Sequence record: NC_070981.1
Direction: 5' to 3' (one strand)
Length of the DNA: 64,000 nt
From: Escherichia phage EK010
Shown here in pieces: positions 15,076-64,000 of the stretch. Position 1 is the stretch's first letter; each line of letters opens with the position of its first letter. The notes beneath the pieces were generated by a model. That model had not been told where the DNA came from, searched no databases, and worked only from the letters and a program-made list of their open reading frames with translations. The translations under genes and the position numbers were made by a program.

Positions 15076-15084
15076 AAATGTATA
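15076..15084 (+). promoter_or_regulatory. promoter-like motif AAATGTATA (one mismatch to TAATGTATA)
   Basis: Intergenic, 37 nt upstream of ATG 15122. Confidence 0.35.
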
Positions 15085-15121
15085 TACAGTATAAGAATAT
15101 TGTATGAAACAGGAGAGAGTT

Positions 15122-19876: not shown

Positions 19877-19885
19877 TAATGTATA
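19877..19885 (+). promoter_or_regulatory. promoter-like motif TAATGTATA
   Basis: Intergenic, 35 nt upstream of ATG 19921. Confidence 0.45.
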
Positions 19886-26652: not shown

Positions 26653-26661
26653 TATACATTA
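26653..26661 (-). promoter_or_regulatory. promoter-like motif TAATGTATA in reverse orientation
   Basis: Same 9-mer on the opposite strand in the same intergenic region, pointing leftwards into non-coding DNA. Confidence 0.25.
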
Positions 26662-26723: not shown

Positions 26724-26732
26724 TAATGTATA
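26724..26732 (+). promoter_or_regulatory. promoter-like motif TAATGTATA
   Basis: Intergenic, 59 nt upstream of SSB-like gene; TATAAT-like hexamer at 26697-26702 nearby. Confidence 0.4.
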
Positions 26733-31229: not shown

Positions 31230-31620
31230 GAAGACAAGATGCTCTGGTCAGTGGACTGAAGCACGTTATAACTCCTTCATTAAGTCAGGGATTCGTTCTC
31301 TGACTAGGAAATGGAAACCTATGTTTGATTCTCTCAAAGAGGCTCAGACAGAACGTAAAATCAACCCTAAAACTGGCAAAATGGCAATGCATTACAAGTG
31401 CGCCATGTGTGGTAATGATTCTCCTCTTAAAGACGTAGCAGTAGACCATATAGAGCCTATTGTTCCAGTGGACCATGAAGCTACTTGGGATGAAATCATC
31501 GAGAGGGCTTTAGTTGAGAAAGATGGTTTTCAAGTCTTATGCAAAGAGCCTTGCCATAAGATAAAAACTAAGGAAGAGAATGATGCAAGACGCGAATTTA
31601 AAAAATCTAGAGACTTCTGA
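31216..31620 (+). CDS. HNH nuclease
   Basis: 'YKCAMCG...DHIEPIVPVDHEATWDEIIERALVEKDGFQVLCKEPCH' C-x2-C / DH / N / CH HNH motif. Confidence 0.6.
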   Translation: MAKAEKTRCSGQWTEARYNSFIKSGIRSLTRKWKPMFDSLKEAQTERKINPKTGKMAMHYKCAMCGNDSPLKDVAVDHIEPIVPVDHEATWDEIIERALVEKDGFQVLCKEPCHKIKTKEENDARREFKKSRDF

Positions 31621-31882
31621 AGAAAGAGAAGTCTTTGAATCTATGAACAAGGAAAACACATATGATCAAGTATCTACGAAACAAGTTCTTCGCTTTAGCT
31701 ATCGTAATTGGAGAGGCGAAGTTGCAGACCGCTCCGTTATTCCTTTACGAACCTCAGTTGCTTCTTCCCGCTATCATAATGGGGGCAAACCTTGTTGGAT
31801 AATGACCGCTTGGGACAATGATAAGAATGACATTCGAGAGTTCAAACTCTCTGATATTATTAAGTATTATGACTTAATCTAG
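31583..31882 (+). CDS. hypothetical protein (start uncertain)
   Basis: AAGGAAG RBS before ATG 31583; overlaps 3' end of HNH gene. Confidence 0.4.
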   Translation: MQDANLKNLETSEEREVFESMNKENTYDQVSTKQVLRFSYRNWRGEVADRSVIPLRTSVASSRYHNGGKPCWIMTAWDNDKNDIREFKLSDIIKYYDLI

Positions 31883-31890
31883 GAGAACAA

Positions 31891-32157
31891 ATGGATTTTA
31901 GTTCAGCACTTATTAAAGTAAAAGAAGGTAAGAAGATTGCTCGTTCTGGTTGGAATGGTGCAAATCAGTTCGTCATCAAAGCAGGTGGATATGAAGTAGA
32001 AGAAGCTCGACCGGGTTCTGATTATGAAAAAGCTGGCATCACAGGTCGATTCACTATCGCCCCTCATTTAGACTTAAAGAATGCTCAGGGTATTATGCAA
32101 CCCGGATGGGTTCCATCTCAGGGTGATTTATTTGCAGATGATTGGGAGGTCTTATGA
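31891..32157 (+). CDS. hypothetical protein (88 aa), last gene of + arm
   Basis: AGGAG RBS. Confidence 0.5.
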   Translation: MDFSSALIKVKEGKKIARSGWNGANQFVIKAGGYEVEEARPGSDYEKAGITGRFTIAPHLDLKNAQGIMQPGWVPSQGDLFADDWEVL

Positions 32158-32341
32158 TTGACTTCGAAGAAGAAAATTGGGATGTGTGATGAATTCGATG
32201 GATTCTAGTAGCCTTGGGTTTTCTCTTTGTTCTAATAGTTCCTATTAAGAGTAAGGACACACCCCCTACTGTACAGTAGATATGGCAAGAGAAGTGATAA
32301 AGGTTTGATATAAAACGTCGAACCTGTATCTAGAAATAAAG

Positions 32342-32369
32342 AAGCCCCCTTCCTTTCGGTTGGGGGCTT
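32342..32369. terminator. bidirectional terminator at the convergent arm junction
   Basis: 8-bp stem AAGCCCCC/GGGGGCTT with 12-nt loop, T-rich on + side and U-rich on - side; lies between last + gene and stop of last - gene. Confidence 0.6.
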
Positions 32370-32376
32370 TTCTTGT

Positions 32377-35300
32377 TTACTCCTTAGCTCGAACTCTAAC
32401 ACGAAGTTTAGCTTGACGCTTACTTCTCTCCAACTTGTCAGACAGAGAACCACGTTTGACTTTCAACTCTCCCTCGTCATTATACTTCTCCAAGAACTGT
32501 AAATACTCTTGTCGAGTAGTTGTCTTGTAAGAAGGAATCTTAGCATTAGGATTCGCTTCAATCACACGTCTAATCTTAGCTACATCATCCCTCCCTAAAA
32601 GTTTCCCTTTAGCTTGTTCTGCTGTAGAACCAAAGATTTTCTCAAGTGCTCGAGATTTGTTACCACCTGCCGAAGCAGCACCAAGTTTCGCAATAGCAGA
32701 ATAATCATCAGCACTAAACCAAGCCACTGGATTATCTCCATAACGTTTCTTGTTCTCAGCAGCAGTCTGTAGAGCACGTACAAATCGACGGTTGTTACCA
32801 GCCTTATCTGCACCATGAACCCTATCTAGAACCTCTGCAACACTCGCCAACTCCTGCAAGTCTTTCCCTTCAATAAAAGCTTTCTCTGCTTTGTTAGCAA
32901 AGTCGTCTTCCTGCTTTTTAATACTTTCAAGAATATCAGAGTTAGCCTGAGATCTTTCATCCTCAGGTAGAGCGGAACGAATCTTCTCCATTTCTTTCTC
33001 TTCATCTAAAAGTTTCTTAAAGTCAGAATCAACTTTACGAGCATCTTCGATAGCTTTTGCTGTTTCTGCATCAAGGTCAGAAGCTTTCCCGTCTGCATCA
33101 CCAGTTGCCTTAGCAATCTCTCTTTCGATTGGAGTAGCTGTTTCATACTTCTTAACAAACTTCTCTACGTCAGATTCGATACGAGCACGAGCATTCTGAT
33201 GTTCCACTGGAGTCATAGGTTTCTCTAACAAAGCATACCGATTATCCATATAAGAACCAGCATACGCTTCAGCATCCTCCCTAGAAACCCCCTTCTCTTC
33301 CAGAGTGTTGACTAAACGCTTATGAATGTCATCACGTTGACGTTGAACTGCCATTAGGTCATTCTCCCGTTCCTGAGCTTCTTTCAGAGCCTTATCTCTC
33401 TTCACTCTAGAATCAATATCAAACCTACGGTTCATTTCCTCAGCCTGTTCATACATTCTATTCCACTTAGCCTCACGAGCATCTTCCTCTGCTTCGGTCA
33501 AACGTCGTTTGCGATCGAGGTAATCACTCTCAGCGTTGTGAATACGTTCAATAATACTACGGAAACGCTCTGGTGGTACTGGAGAGTTTTTATCATGGTG
33601 AGCAGCAAGCTGTTTCAAAGTACGACCTTCCTGAGCTTCTCTGACACTTTCAGGCAACTCTTTGAACATCTTCTCCATCTCGGATTTCTGAGCCGCTATA
33701 GCTTCCAAGGACTGCTTTTCAGCTTCCATAGCTGCCTTGGCATCATTACGAGCCTTAGCTCTGTTACGGAGCGTCTCAAGACGTTCTTGACGTGCTTGCA
33801 AGTGTTTAGCCGCTGCTTCGTATTGAGAGTTCTTGTTAGCCTTGTTGAACATGTTAACTTCTCGGTTATAGGTATTGATAAACCCATCCCACACATCCTT
33901 CATTTGACCAACTTCCAAAGCCTCAACCCTTCCAGCTTTTTCTGAAGATTTAAACTTACTCTCCACAAAGTCTTCCATAATCCTACGCATAGCATCTTTC
34001 TGAGCAGGACGTAAAGGTTCTGCATCAAGCAGTGTACCAATTTCATCCTGAAGCTCTTTCTTCTGATCTACCAGTTTAGGAGCATCTTTCTTGTCAAAAG
34101 CTTTATTCTCTTCCAGAGCCTCTCGATAGAGACGGTCAAATTCATCATCTCTCTGTTTCTGATATAAACGCTCAGCTCTTCGTTTCAGTGAATCTAGGCT
34201 TGTGACGTTTCCACCCAAACCCTTCTCTTCAGCACGTAAAGCCTTAGTAGCAATATCAGAAGGCAATCCACGCTCTTTTACCCAATCAGCAAAAGAAGAA
34301 CGAACATGTTGAGACTTAGCAGAAGCAATACCTTGCTGTGAAGCTAGCTGGTTTCTAGCCATCTCTTCATGACGCTGTGTGTTGTTTGCTTGGTCTTCCT
34401 GACGGATACGACGCATAAGCTCTTTAGGGTCTCCTTTATAAGAAAGGAAGTTTTCCGCAGTAGCTTTAGCTTTAGCAGCAGCCGAATACAAAGAACGAGC
34501 AAATCGGTCAGCACGATCTTTTGTTGCCTGACGGGCAGCAGTTGACATAGAAGCCAGACGCTCTACACCGAGTGATGGTTTAACAGGCTCAAGAGCCTTC
34601 TCAGGAGCTTTAGGCGCACGAGCAGGTAATGGCTCAGGTTTCTCTTGAGGTTCCTCTACGGTCTTCTCAGGAGCTTCTTTAGCACGTTCCGCTTCCTCTG
34701 CTTCTTGACGTTTCTTCGCTTCTGCTACAGCTCTGCGCTGAGCTACTAGCTCTCTTGCTGTAAGAGCTTCTTGCTGTGGTTCAGGTTCTGGTGTAGCACT
34801 TTCTTGAGCCTGAGCAGCTTCAGCTTCTTGACGTCTAAGCTCTGCTTGTTGGAGAGCACGTCTTTGAGCAACTAGATCCCTCGCAGTAAGAGGTGTTTCA
34901 GTTGGAGCTGGAGAGGAAGGAATTTCTTCCGTCACAGTAGTAGCAGAAGGCTCCTCACGAACCGGTTCGGAAGGTGCATCATTTTGAGTACGGAATTTGA
35001 TGTCTTCTGTGGTTGGTTCTTCTTCCATTTTTGCTCTTGCTTCTTCAGCCTGAGTCCTAGCTCGTTGTACTTCTAAATCAGCCCTAGCCAAAGAGCGGAT
35101 AGCTTCGCTATTAGCTGACTGTTGCTTCTCACGTTGAGCACGAGCACGATCGGAAGTAAAGCGGTTAAGTACATACTTGGCTGCACCGAGAGGATTCTTA
35201 ACTAACACAGGAGCCGGAGCTTCACGAAAACCGTCATCAGTCAGAGAGGTCCAACCACGGTCTTGGTTACTCATGAACTTAGCTGTATTATTCAGAGTGA

Positions 35301-36822
35301 AAGCATCTTGGATAGGGTTAAAACCTTCAGGCATACCTTTTAGTTTCTTTAATCCACCAATGGCCTTCTTCATTTCTGGAGAAACATTTTCAGAGAGCTT
35401 CTGCAACTGAGTAGCTTTATCAATGAAGTTGTTTAGGTCTTCACCATCACGAGCTTTGAAACGATTAGCTTCACTGTAAAAAGTTTTATAAGCATCAATA
35501 AAATCACGATCAGCTTGAGTACGGTTTTTAATGTCAATAGCACTACCAGTAAAATCACCACTTGCTCTCAGAGCTACTAACTCTCGGTCTAGATTGTCTA
35601 GAACATCAGTAAGAGCTTTGGTGTTATCTTTAGTGTAGTCAGCCATTGCATCTTTCATTGCCACAGCTTGTTTCTGGTTGTACTCATTGTCAGCAAAAGC
35701 TTTACCTTGAGTCTTCTTAGGAGAAGCTAAAGGATTAAGACCGGGAACGTTAGAACTATCTTTCTGAACCGTAGCAGCCTTCTCTGCACGACTTTGATCT
35801 GTATTTAATATACGTTGAACAGCAGGAGAGTCCATAGCAACTGCATCTGTGATTCGGAAACCATTTTCATCCAGAAGGTTTAAAGCAGAGGCAGCATTAG
35901 CATTCTCAGCTTTAGCATAGGCTTCACGAAGTTCATCAGCGTTAGCAGCTTTACGAATAGCCTCATCTTCAGCAGCAATGTCAGTCTTAACATGCTCAGG
36001 AGTACGATCAAACACTTGAGGACTAGGACGACTTATTAACCCATGAACCCCACCAATCGCCCCACCATAAGCGGCACCGAGTGCACCTTCTTCAATAGCC
36101 CCTTCTAAGACATTAGCTAGAGTAGTGTCATCCCCATATTTGTTCTGAGCTTCAGCAGCACCAACAATAGCACCACCCTTAGCACCAGCAACTGCGTTAG
36201 AGGCTACGCTTTGTCCTACACGACCAAGAGTAGTAGAAGCTGTACCAGTCATGCCCGGAAGTATCTTCTGAGCAGCGTAGTTAGCACCACCAACAAGAGC
36301 AGCATCTAAGACTGACTTATCTTCATCTTCTTTAGGAGTTTGATCAGCATAAGCACGACCTGTTTCACGAGCTGCAATCACAGCAGCAGCAACAGCAGGG
36401 TTTGCAACTGTCAAACCAATATCAGCAGCAACACCAGCATACTGACCAGCTGTTTTACCAAAACCATCTTCTATCTTGGATAAGCGTTCTTCCAGCAATT
36501 GCTTAGAGTTCTCTTGAATGCGCTTACCGTAGCTTGTTTCCGAACCAGTTAGATTTTCACCAATCTCTACCAGCCCACCTAAACCTTTAGCAGCACTAGC
36601 TGCAATGTTAGCACCACCTGATTGAAGAGCGTTAGACACACCTTGAGCAAACTCCCCAATAGCACCTCGTTCTTCTTGTTGTGGTTGCTCTTGTGGTTGA
36701 GTCTCAGGAATAGTGCCCCCTGCTGCCTTGTATTGTTCTCTCATTTGAGCCTGTTGCTCTGGAGAGGCATTCAGATACGCAGGAGCTTTGGAAGCTTCTT
36801 CCCACGATTTTAAATTAGCCAT
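32377..36822 (-). CDS. large coiled-coil virion protein (1481 aa; candidate internal core/ejection protein)
   Basis: Ala/Glu/Lys/Arg-rich coiled-coil sequence; last gene of late operon; AAGGAG RBS; TAATGTATA 36 nt upstream. Confidence 0.5.
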   Translation of the reverse strand: MANLKSWEEASKAPAYLNASPEQQAQMREQYKAAGGTIPETQPQEQPQQEERGAIGEFAQGVSNALQSGGANIAASAAKGLGGLVEIGENLTGSETSYGKRIQENSKQLLEERLSKIEDGFGKTAGQYAGVAADIGLTVANPAVAAAVIAARETGRAYADQTPKEDEDKSVLDAALVGGANYAAQKILPGMTGTASTTLGRVGQSVASNAVAGAKGGAIVGAAEAQNKYGDDTTLANVLEGAIEEGALGAAYGGAIGGVHGLISRPSPQVFDRTPEHVKTDIAAEDEAIRKAANADELREAYAKAENANAASALNLLDENGFRITDAVAMDSPAVQRILNTDQSRAEKAATVQKDSSNVPGLNPLASPKKTQGKAFADNEYNQKQAVAMKDAMADYTKDNTKALTDVLDNLDRELVALRASGDFTGSAIDIKNRTQADRDFIDAYKTFYSEANRFKARDGEDLNNFIDKATQLQKLSENVSPEMKKAIGGLKKLKGMPEGFNPIQDAFTLNNTAKFMSNQDRGWTSLTDDGFREAPAPVLVKNPLGAAKYVLNRFTSDRARAQREKQQSANSEAIRSLARADLEVQRARTQAEEARAKMEEEPTTEDIKFRTQNDAPSEPVREEPSATTVTEEIPSSPAPTETPLTARDLVAQRRALQQAELRRQEAEAAQAQESATPEPEPQQEALTARELVAQRRAVAEAKKRQEAEEAERAKEAPEKTVEEPQEKPEPLPARAPKAPEKALEPVKPSLGVERLASMSTAARQATKDRADRFARSLYSAAAKAKATAENFLSYKGDPKELMRRIRQEDQANNTQRHEEMARNQLASQQGIASAKSQHVRSSFADWVKERGLPSDIATKALRAEEKGLGGNVTSLDSLKRRAERLYQKQRDDEFDRLYREALEENKAFDKKDAPKLVDQKKELQDEIGTLLDAEPLRPAQKDAMRRIMEDFVESKFKSSEKAGRVEALEVGQMKDVWDGFINTYNREVNMFNKANKNSQYEAAAKHLQARQERLETLRNRAKARNDAKAAMEAEKQSLEAIAAQKSEMEKMFKELPESVREAQEGRTLKQLAAHHDKNSPVPPERFRSIIERIHNAESDYLDRKRRLTEAEEDAREAKWNRMYEQAEEMNRRFDIDSRVKRDKALKEAQERENDLMAVQRQRDDIHKRLVNTLEEKGVSREDAEAYAGSYMDNRYALLEKPMTPVEHQNARARIESDVEKFVKKYETATPIEREIAKATGDADGKASDLDAETAKAIEDARKVDSDFKKLLDEEKEMEKIRSALPEDERSQANSDILESIKKQEDDFANKAEKAFIEGKDLQELASVAEVLDRVHGADKAGNNRRFVRALQTAAENKKRYGDNPVAWFSADDYSAIAKLGAASAGGNKSRALEKIFGSTAEQAKGKLLGRDDVAKIRRVIEANPNAKIPSYKTTTRQEYLQFLEKYNDEGELKVKRGSLSDKLERSKRQAKLRVRVRAKE

Positions 36823-36858: not shown

Positions 36859-36867
36859 TATACATTA
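36859..36867 (-). promoter_or_regulatory. promoter-like motif TAATGTATA
   Basis: Intergenic, 36 nt upstream of ATG 36822 of the 1481-aa gene. Confidence 0.45.
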
Positions 36868-63494: not shown

Positions 63495-64000
63495 TATCCA
63501 CCCATTTACTATTCCTAACCTTACCACAGTCTGCGCATCTCCATGTACTCTTGTAATAAGCGTGTAACCGTTCATCACCTCTTGATATCCGGATTGGATA
63601 GTACTCGTGATTACATTTGAATTGCTTAATTAGTAACTTAATCTTCCACATAAAATAGTTCCTTATTCTTATATATAAGAGTTTAAAATTTCAATTTGAC
63701 CGAGTGGACCTAGCCTCTCCGAGCGCGTTTCCTAAAAAGGGGGAGTCCTCATTTAAAAAAGGGTTATTACCAATGCAATTGCCTTTAGGAAATCAACCAG
63801 CCTTTAAGCCCTAAGCCCTAGCTCCCTTGCTACCAGTGGCATACCTGCCCATAAATACCCTACCCATTGATATTAGACATGCATTATTTACCCATGTATA
63901 TCTAACCAGTATTCTCCCACCCGTATTTCTCTTACTCATGTTAAGGAAGGATGAAAGGCTAGAGACCTTCTACACTAAGATTGGAATGGATGGTAAGAAG

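What the first reader, a model, noticed from the sequence alone, without database searches (positions are those of the whole stretch)
32266..32279. Perfect 14-bp palindrome CTACTGTACAGTAG at the arm junction
Seen in sequence: a perfect palindrome sits in the non-coding region between the last + gene and the bidirectional terminator. It could be an operator for a dimeric regulator or part of an RNA structure.
Basis: seen in the sequence. Interest (0 to 1): 0.25.

Follow-up and report, generated by a model that had tools for sequence, protein, structure and literature searches.

The report
Chance palindrome in dispensable phage insert
The 14-base palindrome is really there, but it is no more frequent than chance, occurs only once, and lies in a 121-base non-coding insert that very close relatives of this coliphage lack; it is most likely a small hairpin in the untranslated tail of a messenger RNA, not a regulator's binding site.

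Summary
CTACTGTACAGTAG is present at 32266-32279, as described. It lies in the 219-bp spacer between the last + strand gene and a conserved bidirectional terminator, where the two gene arms converge. The window is Escherichia phage E20-1, a phiEco32-like Kuravirus.

The palindrome is not statistically unusual. The window holds 2 perfect palindromes of 14 bp or more, against 3.2-4.6 expected. No second copy exists in the window or in the rest of the E20-1 record, even with 3 mismatches.

It sits in the middle of a 121-bp insert (32208-32328) found in only four haplotypes: E20-1, SU7-type, ECBP2-type and TH43. Most relatives lack the insert, including a contig whose neighbouring Tad2-like protein is 100% identical. 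The ECBP2-type has lost the symmetry (CTACTGTATAGTAG).

The insert folds well only as + strand RNA. The z-score is -2.0 here and -4.0/-4.4 in ECBP2/TH43, against about 0 for the opposite strand. The fold is two long G·U-containing hairpins, and the palindrome is at most a marginal 5-bp hairpin (-3.9 kcal/mol) between them.

The sequence does not fit an operator, a LexA box, a gp36 promoter or any Rfam family. Verdict: ordinary and of low interest. It is an incidental hairpin in a dispensable, structured 3'-UTR insert at a mosaic hot spot.

The parts
32266..32279 (.). Perfect 14-bp palindrome CTACTGTACAGTAG. As + strand RNA it forms a 5-bp stem (32266-32270 with 32275-32279) and a GUAC loop; this is hairpin P2.
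   Evidence: Searches give the sequence. Searches give the fold: -3.9 kcal/mol, z = -0.25. It is invariant in E20-1, SU7-type and TH43. ECBP2-type has C>T at the position of 32274, which is in the loop.
32208..32328 (+). 121-bp lineage-specific non-coding insert that holds the palindrome. 'Empty' relatives have ACA (ATA in one contig) in its place, within GGATTCTA|ACA|TCTAGAAAT. The motif TCTAG occurs at both borders (32204-32208 and 32329-32333).
   Evidence: Alignments; junction extraction. Among 50,697 phage records it is found only in E20-1, SU7, ECBP2 and TH43, plus 3 Logan/ENA contigs. No match in E. coli genomes, plasmids, JGI metagenomes or GTDB genomes. In IMG/VR only the ECBP2 genome matches.
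32224..32257 (+). Predicted RNA hairpin P1: 15 bp with one bulge and a 3-nt loop, including several G·U pairs. It overlaps the stop of mini-ORF2.
   Evidence: It is kept in all four haplotypes. Changes are GU<->GC and AU->GU, plus one broken loop-closing pair in TH43.
32211..32286 (+). Predicted three-way junction enclosing P1 and P2. Its helices are 32211-32213 with 32284-32286, and 32216-32219 with 32261-32264.
   Evidence: The pairs are invariant, so they say nothing for or against the structure. TH43 folds this part differently.
32296..32330 (+). Predicted RNA hairpin P3: 9+4 bp with a 7-nt loop in the window. It is stronger in ECBP2 (11+4 bp) and in TH43 (16 bp).
   Evidence: There are two double-sided changes in TH43's outer stem, which lie next to an indel.
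32334..32378 (.). Conserved bidirectional intrinsic terminator. The core stem is AAGCCCCC (32342-32349) with GGGGGCTT (32362-32369). An A-rich run lies upstream and a T-rich run downstream. It overlaps the stop codon of the 1481-aa gene.
   Evidence: Terminators are annotated on both strands at the homologous place in SU7 and 4E8. It is conserved in all 13 aligned relatives.
32154..32189 (+). Mini-ORF MIDFEEENWDV* with a strong Shine-Dalgarno sequence (GGGAGG). It overlaps the Tad2-like stop (ATGA). It corresponds to the C-terminal end of phiEco32 gp27.
32189..32248 (+). Mini-ORF MNSMDSSSLGFSLCSNSSY* with a TGATG overlap to the previous mini-ORF. Its 3' two-thirds lie in the insert. It is 8 aa in 'empty' relatives.
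   Evidence: All substitutions among the haplotypes are non-synonymous (S7N, S17G/N, S18F), so there is no sign of selection on a protein.
31891..32157 (+). Last + strand gene: an 88-aa Tad2-like (Thoeris anti-defence 2) protein. It is itself present or absent among relatives, independently of the insert.
   Evidence: PF11195, E = 2e-23.
32377..36822 (-). Convergent late gene of 1481 aa. A perfect gp36-type TAATGTATA motif lies at 36859-36867 (-), just upstream of its start.

Best explanation
The palindrome is an incidental short inverted repeat inside a dispensable 121-bp insert (32208-32328). The insert is transcribed as the untranslated 3' tail of the + strand (middle-gene) operon, just before the conserved bidirectional terminator.

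On the + strand RNA the insert folds into two long G·U-containing hairpins, P1 and P3. The palindrome can form only a marginal 5-bp, 4-nt-loop hairpin (P2) between them. No dedicated protein reads it as DNA.

If the insert does anything, it acts in cis as a cluster of 3'-UTR stem-loops. Such a cluster would shape or protect the 3' end of the mRNA for the upstream accessory genes (WYL-domain and Tad2-like).

Shown: the sequence, its single copy, the insert's presence/absence among relatives, the strand-specific predicted fold, and the failure to fit the tested site families. Inferred: that the region is transcribed, and any stabilising role.
For: 1. Palindromes of this size are at or below chance: 2 observed against 3.2-4.6 expected.

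2. The site is single-copy. There is no further match with <=3 mismatches in the window or in the rest of E20-1. The half-sites do not recur at any spacing from 0 to 14.

3. The palindrome lies in the 121-bp insert, which is a presence/absence polymorphism. Bas86 is 97.6% identical in the flanks and lacks the insert; ECBP2 and TH43 are 88% identical and carry it. Two Logan contigs encode a 100% identical Tad2-like protein, yet one has the insert and the other lacks it. The insert and the Tad2-like gene occur in all four combinations.

4. The ECBP2-type haplotype reads CTACTGTATAGTAG. It was seen in the ECBP2 isolate and in an ENA contig. The change breaks the DNA symmetry but falls in the RNA loop and leaves the energy unchanged.

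5. The predicted fold is strand-specific:
- E20-1: + strand z = -2.0, - strand z = -0.26.
- ECBP2: + strand z = -3.97, - strand z = +0.21.
- TH43: + strand z = -4.40, - strand z = +0.52.
In 160 background windows of this genome the sense z has mean -0.29, sd 1.06 and minimum -3.4. No background window shows a sense-minus-antisense difference of -4 or lower.

6. In the consensus fold 99.4% of cells are paired. Stem changes are mostly GU<->GC or AU<->GU. Variable columns number 9 of 85 paired against 10 of 42 unpaired (p = 0.065).

7. The position lies between the last ORF and the terminator of the same strand, so it should be part of that transcript.
Against: - The window's own copy of the insert folds no better than about 9% of random windows of this genome (z = -2.1).
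- The P2 helix never varies, so nothing supports it specifically.
- P2 is weak (-3.9 kcal/mol, z = -0.25). It is not formed in the TH43 minimum-energy fold, where its left arm pairs with an upstream UAGUAG.
- Only four haplotypes exist, so covariation statistics are weak: 22 of 500 shuffles reach the observed score.
- No transcript data were available, so transcription and any stabilising effect are inferred.
- Both 14-bp palindromes of the window lie in non-coding DNA (P about 0.03, post hoc). That leaves some room for a function.
Confidence: 0.55

Rival explanations
1. Neutral filler. The insert is a relic, for example of a lost gene cassette or of an illegitimate recombination event at this hot spot. 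It has no effect on RNA stability or on anything else, and the palindrome is pure chance.
For: - The insert is dispensable among near-identical phages.
- The site carries several alternative fillers: the empty state, the 121-bp insert, a ~28-34-bp filler in Bas88/L076/L082, and a 39-aa ORF in NJ01.
- The palindrome count is at chance.
- The window's own fold score is unremarkable.
- No match to Rfam or tRNA models.
Against: - The + strand-specific fold of z = -4.0 and -4.4 in ECBP2 and TH43 lies beyond anything in 160 background windows, while the - strand is about 0.
- The non-coding insert is at least as conserved as the flanking genes: 92.6% and 89.6% against 88.5% and 87.9% for E20-1 compared with ECBP2 and TH43.
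- No similarity to the NJ01 ORF: score 16 against a null of 15.4.
Confidence: 0.25
2. The insert, alone or together with the terminator hairpin, is a functional small RNA acting in trans. It could be a 3'-UTR-derived sRNA released by processing, or an RNA that counteracts a host defence. It would travel with the accessory-gene island, with the palindrome hairpin as one of its modules.
For: - The fold is strong and strand-specific in ECBP2 and TH43.
- The insert is conserved at or above the level of the flanking genes.
- It is a mosaic, cassette-like unit lying next to a Tad2-like anti-defence gene and a WYL-domain gene.
- The layout of hairpin, A/U-rich stretch and terminator hairpin with a U tail is typical of enterobacterial sRNAs (established knowledge).
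Against: - No promoter conserved among the carriers. The only sigma-70-like match (32131-32158) lies partly in sequence that SU7 and ECBP2 lack.
- No Rfam family, including the CRISPR repeat families.
- No second copy by covariance model.
- No match in E. coli genomes that would suggest a target or an origin.
- It is dispensable.
- The A-rich stretch is already explained by the terminator being bidirectional.
Confidence: 0.1
3. DNA operator. A dimeric DNA-binding protein of the phage or the host binds the two 7-bp half-sites, for example to block convergent transcription or replication at the arm junction.
For: - The dyad symmetry over 14 bp is perfect.
- The half-sites TACTGT and ACAGTA are those of the E. 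coli LexA box (established knowledge).
- Both 14-bp palindromes of the window lie in non-coding DNA.
- A WYL-domain gene lies 400 bp upstream, and WYL proteins are often regulators (established knowledge).
Against: - The site is single-copy, and no degenerate copies exist anywhere in the genome.
- It is not at a promoter.
- It is absent from most relatives, which have the same gene set. That includes the WYL gene, which is present in all the loci checked.
- The WYL protein is only 100 aa, with the WYL domain at residues 31-93, which leaves no room for a helix-turn-helix domain.
- The symmetry is broken in the viable ECBP2-type phages.
- The LexA spacing is wrong: 0 instead of 8 bp between CTGT and ACAG. 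The single canonical CTGT-N8-ACAG in the window is at chance level (1 against 1.37 expected).
Confidence: 0.05
4. Weak promoter for the phage sigma factor gp36. TACTGTACA resembles TAATGTATA and reads the same on both strands. It could start a short RNA of about 90 nt ending at the terminator, or an antisense RNA.
For: - The gp36 consensus is tAATGTATAtA, 6-8 nt upstream of the start site (PMC4281155; PMC12276001).
- The palindrome matches 7 of 9 positions on both strands, and the ECBP2 variant TACTGTATA matches 8 of 9.
Against: - The mismatch is at -13 (C instead of A). gp36 contacts that base, and mutating the contacted bases compromises transcription (PMC12276001).
- The required -37G is missing on both strands: the + strand has T at -37 and A at -34; the - strand has T at both (sequence).
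- One-mismatch matches to the motif are at chance level, 21 against 18 expected. A two-mismatch match therefore carries no information.
- The four perfect sites in the window all carry the extended TAATGTATA(t/c)(a/t) context, which the palindrome lacks.
Confidence: 0.03

Closest known systems
Stem-loop clusters in 3' untranslated regions upstream of intrinsic terminators, such as E. coli REP/BIME elements and 3' mRNA stabiliser hairpins (established knowledge)
   Same: Imperfect hairpins lying between convergent genes, downstream of the last ORF and upstream of the terminator. They are strand-specific at the RNA level, dispensable, and present or absent among close relatives.
   Different: There is no sequence similarity to anything in E. 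coli genomes. The insert is single-copy rather than a repeated family. It is AT-rich with G·U pairs rather than GC-rich. No effect on mRNA stability has been shown.
E. coli LexA SOS box, TACTG(TA)5CAGTA (established knowledge)
   Same: The outer half-sites TACTGT and ACAGTA are identical to the LexA consensus.
   Different: The half-sites abut: CTGT and ACAG are separated by 0 bp instead of 8. The site is not at a promoter. It is absent from most relatives. Canonical CTGT-N8-ACAG sites are not enriched in the window.
phiEco32 gp36-dependent middle/late promoters, tAATGTATAtA (PMC4281155, PMC12276001)
   Same: The palindrome shares the TGTA core and matches TAATGTATA at 7 of 9 positions on both strands.
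   Different: The contacted -13A is C, -37G is absent, there is no gene to drive, and near-matches of this quality are at chance.
Variable accessory-gene hot spots at operon ends in virulent phages (established knowledge)
   Same: The junction carries alternative cargo in different relatives: the Tad2-like ORF, a 167-aa ORF in PAS59, small ORFs in phiEco32 and NJ01, and 121-bp or ~30-bp non-coding fillers. These assort independently of one another.
   Different: No repeated boundary motif shared with other sites of the genome was found. Only short CTAG/CTAGAAA repeats occur at the borders.

Membership tests
LexA SOS box (E. coli type) | CTGT and ACAG half-sites separated by 8 bp, within a 16-20-bp palindrome | tested here: not met
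   The half-sites are present but directly adjacent (CTGTACAG). A search for TACTGT-N(0-14)-ACAGTA finds only this zero-spacing site.
LexA SOS box (E. coli type) | Overlaps or adjoins the promoter of a regulated gene | tested here: not met
   The site lies after the last ORF of its operon and before the terminator. No promoter-like site is found in 32159-32455 on either strand.
Operator of a phage-encoded dimeric regulator | Dyad symmetry conserved in the relatives that carry the site | tested here: inconclusive
   The symmetry is perfect in 3 of 4 haplotypes. It is broken at one position in the ECBP2-type (ECBP2 and contig L081).
Operator of a phage-encoded dimeric regulator | Further related sites in the genome, or co-occurrence with a regulator gene | tested here: not met
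   No other copy with <=3 mismatches in the window or the rest of E20-1. Phages with and without the insert have the same neighbouring genes.
Operator of a phage-encoded dimeric regulator | Specific protein binding | not testable with these tools
   This needs EMSA or a DNA pull-down.
gp36-dependent phiEco32-type promoter | AATGTA at -14 to -9, with A at -14 and -13, T at -12 and G at -11 | tested here: not met
   The palindrome reads ACTGTA on both strands, so -13 is C. The requirement comes from PMC12276001.
gp36-dependent phiEco32-type promoter | G at -37 and A at -34, which the gp36 C-terminal domain contacts | tested here: not met
   The + strand has T at -37 (32245) and A at -34 (32248). 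The - strand has T at both (32300 and 32297) (sequence; requirement).
Intrinsic (rho-independent) terminator | G+C-rich stem followed by a T run | tested here: not met
   The scan finds the terminator at 32349-32366 but nothing at the palindrome. The palindrome stem has 2 G-C pairs of 5 and no T run follows it.
Described RNA families (Rfam 15, including CRISPR repeat families, sRNAs and cis-regulatory leaders) and tRNA/tmRNA | Score at or above the family's gathering threshold | tested here: not met
   The best hit is PyrR at 24.9 bits against a threshold of 54, E = 0.46. ECBP2 and TH43 give the same result. ARAGORN finds nothing.
3'-UTR stem-loop cluster (cis-acting RNA structure) | Lies within the transcribed 3' tail, between the last stop codon and the terminator of the same strand | tested here: met
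   The stop is at 32157 (or 32248 for the mini-ORF) and the terminator is at 32334-32378. Transcription itself is inferred.
3'-UTR stem-loop cluster (cis-acting RNA structure) | Fold better than shuffled sequence, on the sense strand only, and kept among relatives | tested here: met
   z = -2.0, -3.97 and -4.40 on the + strand against -0.26, +0.21 and +0.52 on the - strand. The background minimum is -3.4. The same P1 and P3 hairpins appear in all haplotypes. The evidence is weak for the window's own copy and for the palindrome hairpin itself.
3'-UTR stem-loop cluster (cis-acting RNA structure) | Effect on the stability or processing of the upstream mRNA | not testable with these tools
   This needs RNA half-life or 3'-end mapping in phages with and without the insert.
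Repeated mobile element (REP/MITE-like) | Several copies in the genome, or copies in other genomes in different contexts | tested here: not met
   blastn of the insert against the window finds only itself. The covariance model finds only itself. Public collections hold it only at this junction.

The most novel reading that the evidence does not exclude
The 121-nt insert is a self-contained, horizontally exchanged structured RNA. It could be a 3'-UTR-derived small RNA or an RNA that counteracts a host defence. It would belong to the accessory (anti-defence) island at the end of the middle operon of Kuravirus phages, with the palindrome hairpin as one of its functional modules.
Probability: 0.1. 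Interest if true: 0.45.

Novelty: new member of a known kind. Interest (0 to 1): 0.1.

Why it matters
It matters little. The palindrome should not be pursued as an operator.

The useful by-products are modest:
- The convergent junction of phiEco32-like phages is a mosaic hot spot whose cargo varies among near-identical phages.
- It holds a Tad2-like anti-Thoeris gene and a stand-alone WYL-domain gene.
- One of the alternative fillers is a 121-bp segment with a strand-specific RNA fold that is stronger in ECBP2 and TH43 than in this phage.

If that RNA proved to be functional, it would be an example of a non-coding cargo element travelling with anti-defence genes. Nothing here shows that.

Tried and rejected
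1. LexA box: the half-sites match but the spacing is 0 instead of 8, and canonical boxes are not enriched.

2. gp36 promoter: 2 mismatches including the contacted -13A, and -37G is missing.

3. Sigma-70 promoter or second terminator at the palindrome: the scan finds none.

4. Rfam (all 4227 families, E up to 10) on the window and on the ECBP2 and TH43 loci, plus ARAGORN: nothing near threshold. I also compared the palindrome with the E. coli type I-F CRISPR repeat hairpin, recalled from memory as CTGCCGTACAGGCAG. The loop and outer bases resemble it, but the flanks do not, and no Rfam CRISPR repeat family matched. Rejected.

5. Repeated element family: blastn of the insert against the window, a covariance model built from the four haplotypes and the repeat finder all find only the insert itself. 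No terminal inverted repeats were seen.

6. Origin in the host, a plasmid or another phage: no match in E. coli genomes or plasmids. In the phage collection, apart from the four carriers, only two Staphylococcus phages give a chance-level 38-bp match (E = 0.3).

7. More carriers in large collections:
- IMG/VR holds only the ECBP2 genome.
- The JGI metagenome scan with a 21-mer found nothing.
- The 18-mer scans of metagenomes and GTDB genomes returned 55 loci. All are chance 18-22-nt matches in unrelated taxa.

8. Relic of the NJ01_037 ORF that occupies the same site in NJ01: the local alignment score is 16, against a null of 15.4 +/- 2.4. Rejected.

9. Coding potential of mini-ORF2 (19 aa): all differences among the haplotypes are non-synonymous, so there is no support.

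10. Operator of the neighbouring WYL protein: the protein is too short for a DNA-binding domain, and it is present in phages that lack the palindrome.

11. Exact-protein look-ups with the 100-aa and 134-aa proteins gave nothing new.

Full report
OBSERVATION. The window reads CTACTGTACAGTAG at 32266-32279, and this is a perfect 14-bp palindrome. It lies in a 219-bp spacer. On one side is the stop of the last + strand ORF (31891-32157). On the other is the stop of a 1481-aa - strand ORF (32377-36822). A terminator hairpin lies 55-60 bp downstream: the core stem is 32342-32349 with 32362-32369, with an A-rich run before it and a T-rich run after it. GC skew changes sign at about 32 kb, so this is the point where the two gene arms converge.

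IS IT MORE THAN CHANCE? No.
- The window holds 2 perfect palindromes of 14 bp or more. Shuffles and Markov models of order 1, 3 and 5 give 4.6, 4.0, 3.7 and 3.2.
- The 14-mer occurs once with up to 2 mismatches (0.36 expected). It still occurs only once with up to 3 mismatches (3.09 expected).
- Its half-sites do not recur at any spacing from 0 to 14.
- The part of the E20-1 record that extends beyond the window (fetched as 60000-77938) holds no copy with up to 3 mismatches.
- One post hoc caveat: both 14-bp palindromes of the window lie in the ~6.5% that is non-coding. The other is TCTTATATATAAGA at 63667. The Poisson probability of that is about 0.03.

WHERE THE WINDOW COMES FROM. The region is 100% identical to Escherichia phage E20-1 (OP293233), reverse-complemented. 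E20-1 is a Kuravirus in the Gordonclarkvirinae, the phiEco32-like phages. In this group the + strand genes here belong to the middle class and the - strand genes to the late class (PMC4281155). SU7 and 4E8 annotate terminators on both strands at the homologous place. The terminator is conserved in all 13 aligned relatives.

THE REAL ANATOMY: A 121-BP INSERT. An alignment of 13 relatives shows conserved flanks (...GATGGATTCTA and TCTAGAAATAAAGAAGCCCCC...). The segment 32208-32328 is present only in E20-1, SU7, ECBP2 and TH43.
- TH34, Bas86, Bas87, 4E8, NC-B and PAS59 have just ACA in its place, and phiEco32 is equally short.
- Bas88 has a different filler of about 30 bp.
- NJ01 has a 39-aa ORF at this site.

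A blastn search with the insert alone finds these four phages among 50,697 phage records. The only other hits are two chance-level matches in Staphylococcus phages. Nothing is found in E. coli genomes or plasmids. Pattern scans of IMG/VR, JGI metagenomes and GTDB genomes gave only the ECBP2 genome and chance 18-22-mers.

Exact-protein look-ups gave further contigs:
- L071 and L079 carry the SU7-type insert.
- L081 carries the ECBP2-type insert.
- L073, L075 and L078 are empty.
- L076 and L082 carry the Bas88-type filler, which is flanked by CTAGAAA(T) direct repeats.

Two results bear on dispensability. First, L071 and L073 encode a 100% identical Tad2-like protein, yet one has the insert and the other lacks it. 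Second, Bas86 is 97.6% identical in the flanks and lacks it, whereas ECBP2 and TH43 are 88% identical and have it. The insert is therefore a recent, dispensable, recombining indel. The insert and the Tad2-like gene occur in all four combinations.

THE PALINDROME WITHIN THE INSERT. There are four haplotypes. Three keep the perfect palindrome. The ECBP2-type reads CTACTGTATAGTAG, in both the ECBP2 isolate and contig L081. This breaks the DNA symmetry at the second position from the centre.

RNA-LEVEL EVIDENCE. As + strand RNA the insert folds into three elements:
- a 15-bp hairpin P1 (32224-32257);
- the palindrome as a 5-bp stem with a GUAC loop, P2;
- a hairpin P3 (32296-32330).
P1 and P2 are enclosed by two short helices.

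The fold is strand-specific:
- E20-1: + strand z = -2.0, - strand z = -0.26.
- ECBP2: + strand z = -3.97, - strand z = +0.21.
- TH43: + strand z = -4.40, - strand z = +0.52.

A background of 160 windows of 131 nt from this genome gives sense z with mean -0.29, sd 1.06 and minimum -3.4. In that background 8.75% of windows reach -2 or lower. None shows a sense-minus-antisense difference of -4 or lower. The ECBP2 and TH43 copies are therefore outliers, while the window's own copy is not.

In the four-sequence consensus 99.4% of cells pair. Stem changes are mostly GU<->GC or AU<->GU. The two double-sided changes are both in TH43's outer P3, next to an indel. 22 of 500 shuffles reach the observed score. 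Variable columns number 9 of 85 paired against 10 of 42 unpaired (p = 0.065).

For the palindrome hairpin itself there is no independent support:
- It never varies.
- It is worth only -3.9 kcal/mol, with z = -0.25.
- The ECBP2 change lies in its loop and leaves the energy unchanged.
- In TH43's minimum-energy fold its left arm pairs with an upstream UAGUAG instead.

No Rfam family comes near its threshold, and no tRNA or tmRNA is predicted. A covariance model of the insert finds no second copy in the window or in the other loci searched.

DNA-SITE READINGS TESTED.

(a) LexA box. The outer bases equal the E. coli consensus half-sites (established knowledge). However, CTGT and ACAG abut instead of being 8 bp apart. 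The single canonical CTGT-N8-ACAG in the window is at chance level (1 against 1.37 expected).

(b) gp36 promoter. The consensus is tAATGTATAtA, 6-8 nt upstream of the start site (PMC4281155). gp36 makes base-specific contacts to -14A, -13A, -12T, -11G, -37G and -34A (PMC12276001). The window has four perfect TAATGTATA sites, one of them just upstream of the 1481-aa gene. The palindrome reads TACTGTACA on both strands, so -13 is C and -37G is absent. One-mismatch matches to the motif are already at chance (21 against 18 expected).

(c) Operator of a neighbouring regulator. The upstream 100-aa protein has a WYL domain at residues 31-93 and no room for a DNA-binding domain. It is also present in phages that lack the palindrome.

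(d) No sigma-70-like promoter or terminator pattern is found at the palindrome.

MOST LIKELY MECHANISM. The palindrome is an incidental inverted repeat in a dispensable insert that forms part of the 3' untranslated tail of the middle operon. On the RNA it can form a marginal hairpin between two much stronger, G·U-containing hairpins. If the insert does anything, it acts in cis as a 3'-UTR stem-loop cluster ahead of the terminator. It could, for example, slow 3'-to-5' decay of the mRNA for the accessory genes upstream.

The following are shown: the sequence, the statistics, the distribution among relatives, the predicted strand-specific fold, and the failed membership tests. The following are inferred: transcription through the insert and any stabilising role.

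I give this reading 0.55. The alternatives are purely neutral filler (0.25), a trans-acting or anti-defence small RNA (0.10), an operator (0.05) and a gp36 promoter (0.03).

COMPARISON WITH KNOWN SYSTEMS AND NOVELTY. The insert works like ordinary 3'-UTR and intergenic stem-loop elements such as REP/BIME and 3' stabiliser hairpins. It is not a member of any repeated family or any described RNA family. It resembles a LexA box and a gp36 promoter only superficially, and it fails their defining features. Neither the SU7 genome paper nor a text search for phiEco32 together with 'small RNA' turned up any mention of this site. It is a new but unremarkable instance of a known kind of feature, and its interest is low.

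NOTICED IN PASSING.
- The last + strand gene is a Tad2-like (Thoeris anti-defence 2) protein. It is preceded by a stand-alone WYL-domain protein.
- An 11-codon mini-ORF with a strong ribosome-binding site is conserved across the group.
- The junction has at least four alternative states.

Noticed in passing
window 31891-32157 (+): The last gene of the + arm encodes an 88-aa Tad2-like protein (Pfam PF11195, Thoeris anti-defence 2, E = 2e-23). The records annotate it only as 'hypothetical'. It is present in E20-1, TH43, Bas86/87/88 and NC-B, and absent from SU7, ECBP2, TH34 and 4E8.
   Followed up: partly
window 31580-31882 (+): A 100-aa protein that consists essentially of a WYL domain alone (PF13280, residues 31-93, above the Pfam cut-off), with no room for a DNA-binding domain. 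It sits directly upstream of the Tad2-like gene, so it could be a ligand sponge or a decoy. It is present in all the relatives checked.
   Followed up: partly
window 32154-32189 (+): An 11-codon mini-ORF, MIDFEEENWDV*, with a strong Shine-Dalgarno sequence and an ATGA overlap with the preceding stop. It is conserved in all close relatives whether or not the Tad2-like gene precedes it. It corresponds to the C-terminal end of phiEco32 gp27 (35 aa). It could be a micro-protein or a relic.
   Followed up: partly
L076:2912-2955, L082 (same sequence), L007 (Bas88) about 660-700: A third state of the same junction: a ~28-bp filler, TTAGGTGATTTGCTACCTTTAAGTGCAG. In L076 and L082 it is flanked by CTAGAAA(T) direct repeats that look like a target-site duplication. 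The insertion point, CTAGAAAT just before the terminator, looks like a recombination hot spot.
   Followed up: partly
window 63667-63680: The only other perfect 14-bp palindrome of the window, TCTTATATATAAGA. It is also in non-coding, AT-rich DNA near the end of the window.
   Followed up: no
window 19877-19885 (+), 26653-26661 (-), 26724-26732 (+), 36859-36867 (-): Four perfect matches to the gp36 promoter core TAATGTATA, all followed by (T/C)(A/T). The sites at 26653 (-) and 26724 (+) form a divergent pair 70 bp apart. The site at 36859 (-) lies 37 nt upstream of the start of the 1481-aa gene.
   Followed up: partly
window 15076-15091: AAATGTATATACAGTA. A gp36-like motif on the + strand (AAATGTATA) overlaps TACTGTATA on the - strand, in the spacer before the ORF at 15104. 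TACTGTATA is the same nine bases as in the ECBP2 version of the palindrome.
   Followed up: no
window 63773-64000: Window position p maps to E20-1 record position 63773 - p, so the last 228 bases of the window run past position 1 of the linear record. They were not found in record 60000-77938. The window therefore comes from a differently permuted or slightly different assembly.
   Followed up: partly
window 32350-32361 and alignment A1 columns 301-312: The terminator loop differs among relatives. It is TTTC-GG here and in phiEco32 and NJ01, and TTTTTACAGG or TTTTCAGG in most others. 4E8 has GGAAGGGGGC, which lengthens the stem by pairing with CTTCC.
   Followed up: no
window 32216-32224 and 32365-32373: A direct repeat, GGGTTTTCT / GGCTTTTCT. 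The 5' part of the insert resembles the 3' arm of the terminator, so it could in principle pair with the terminator's 5' arm as an alternative structure. The sub-threshold Rfam PyrR hit (24.9 bits against 54) probably reflects this layout.
   Followed up: no
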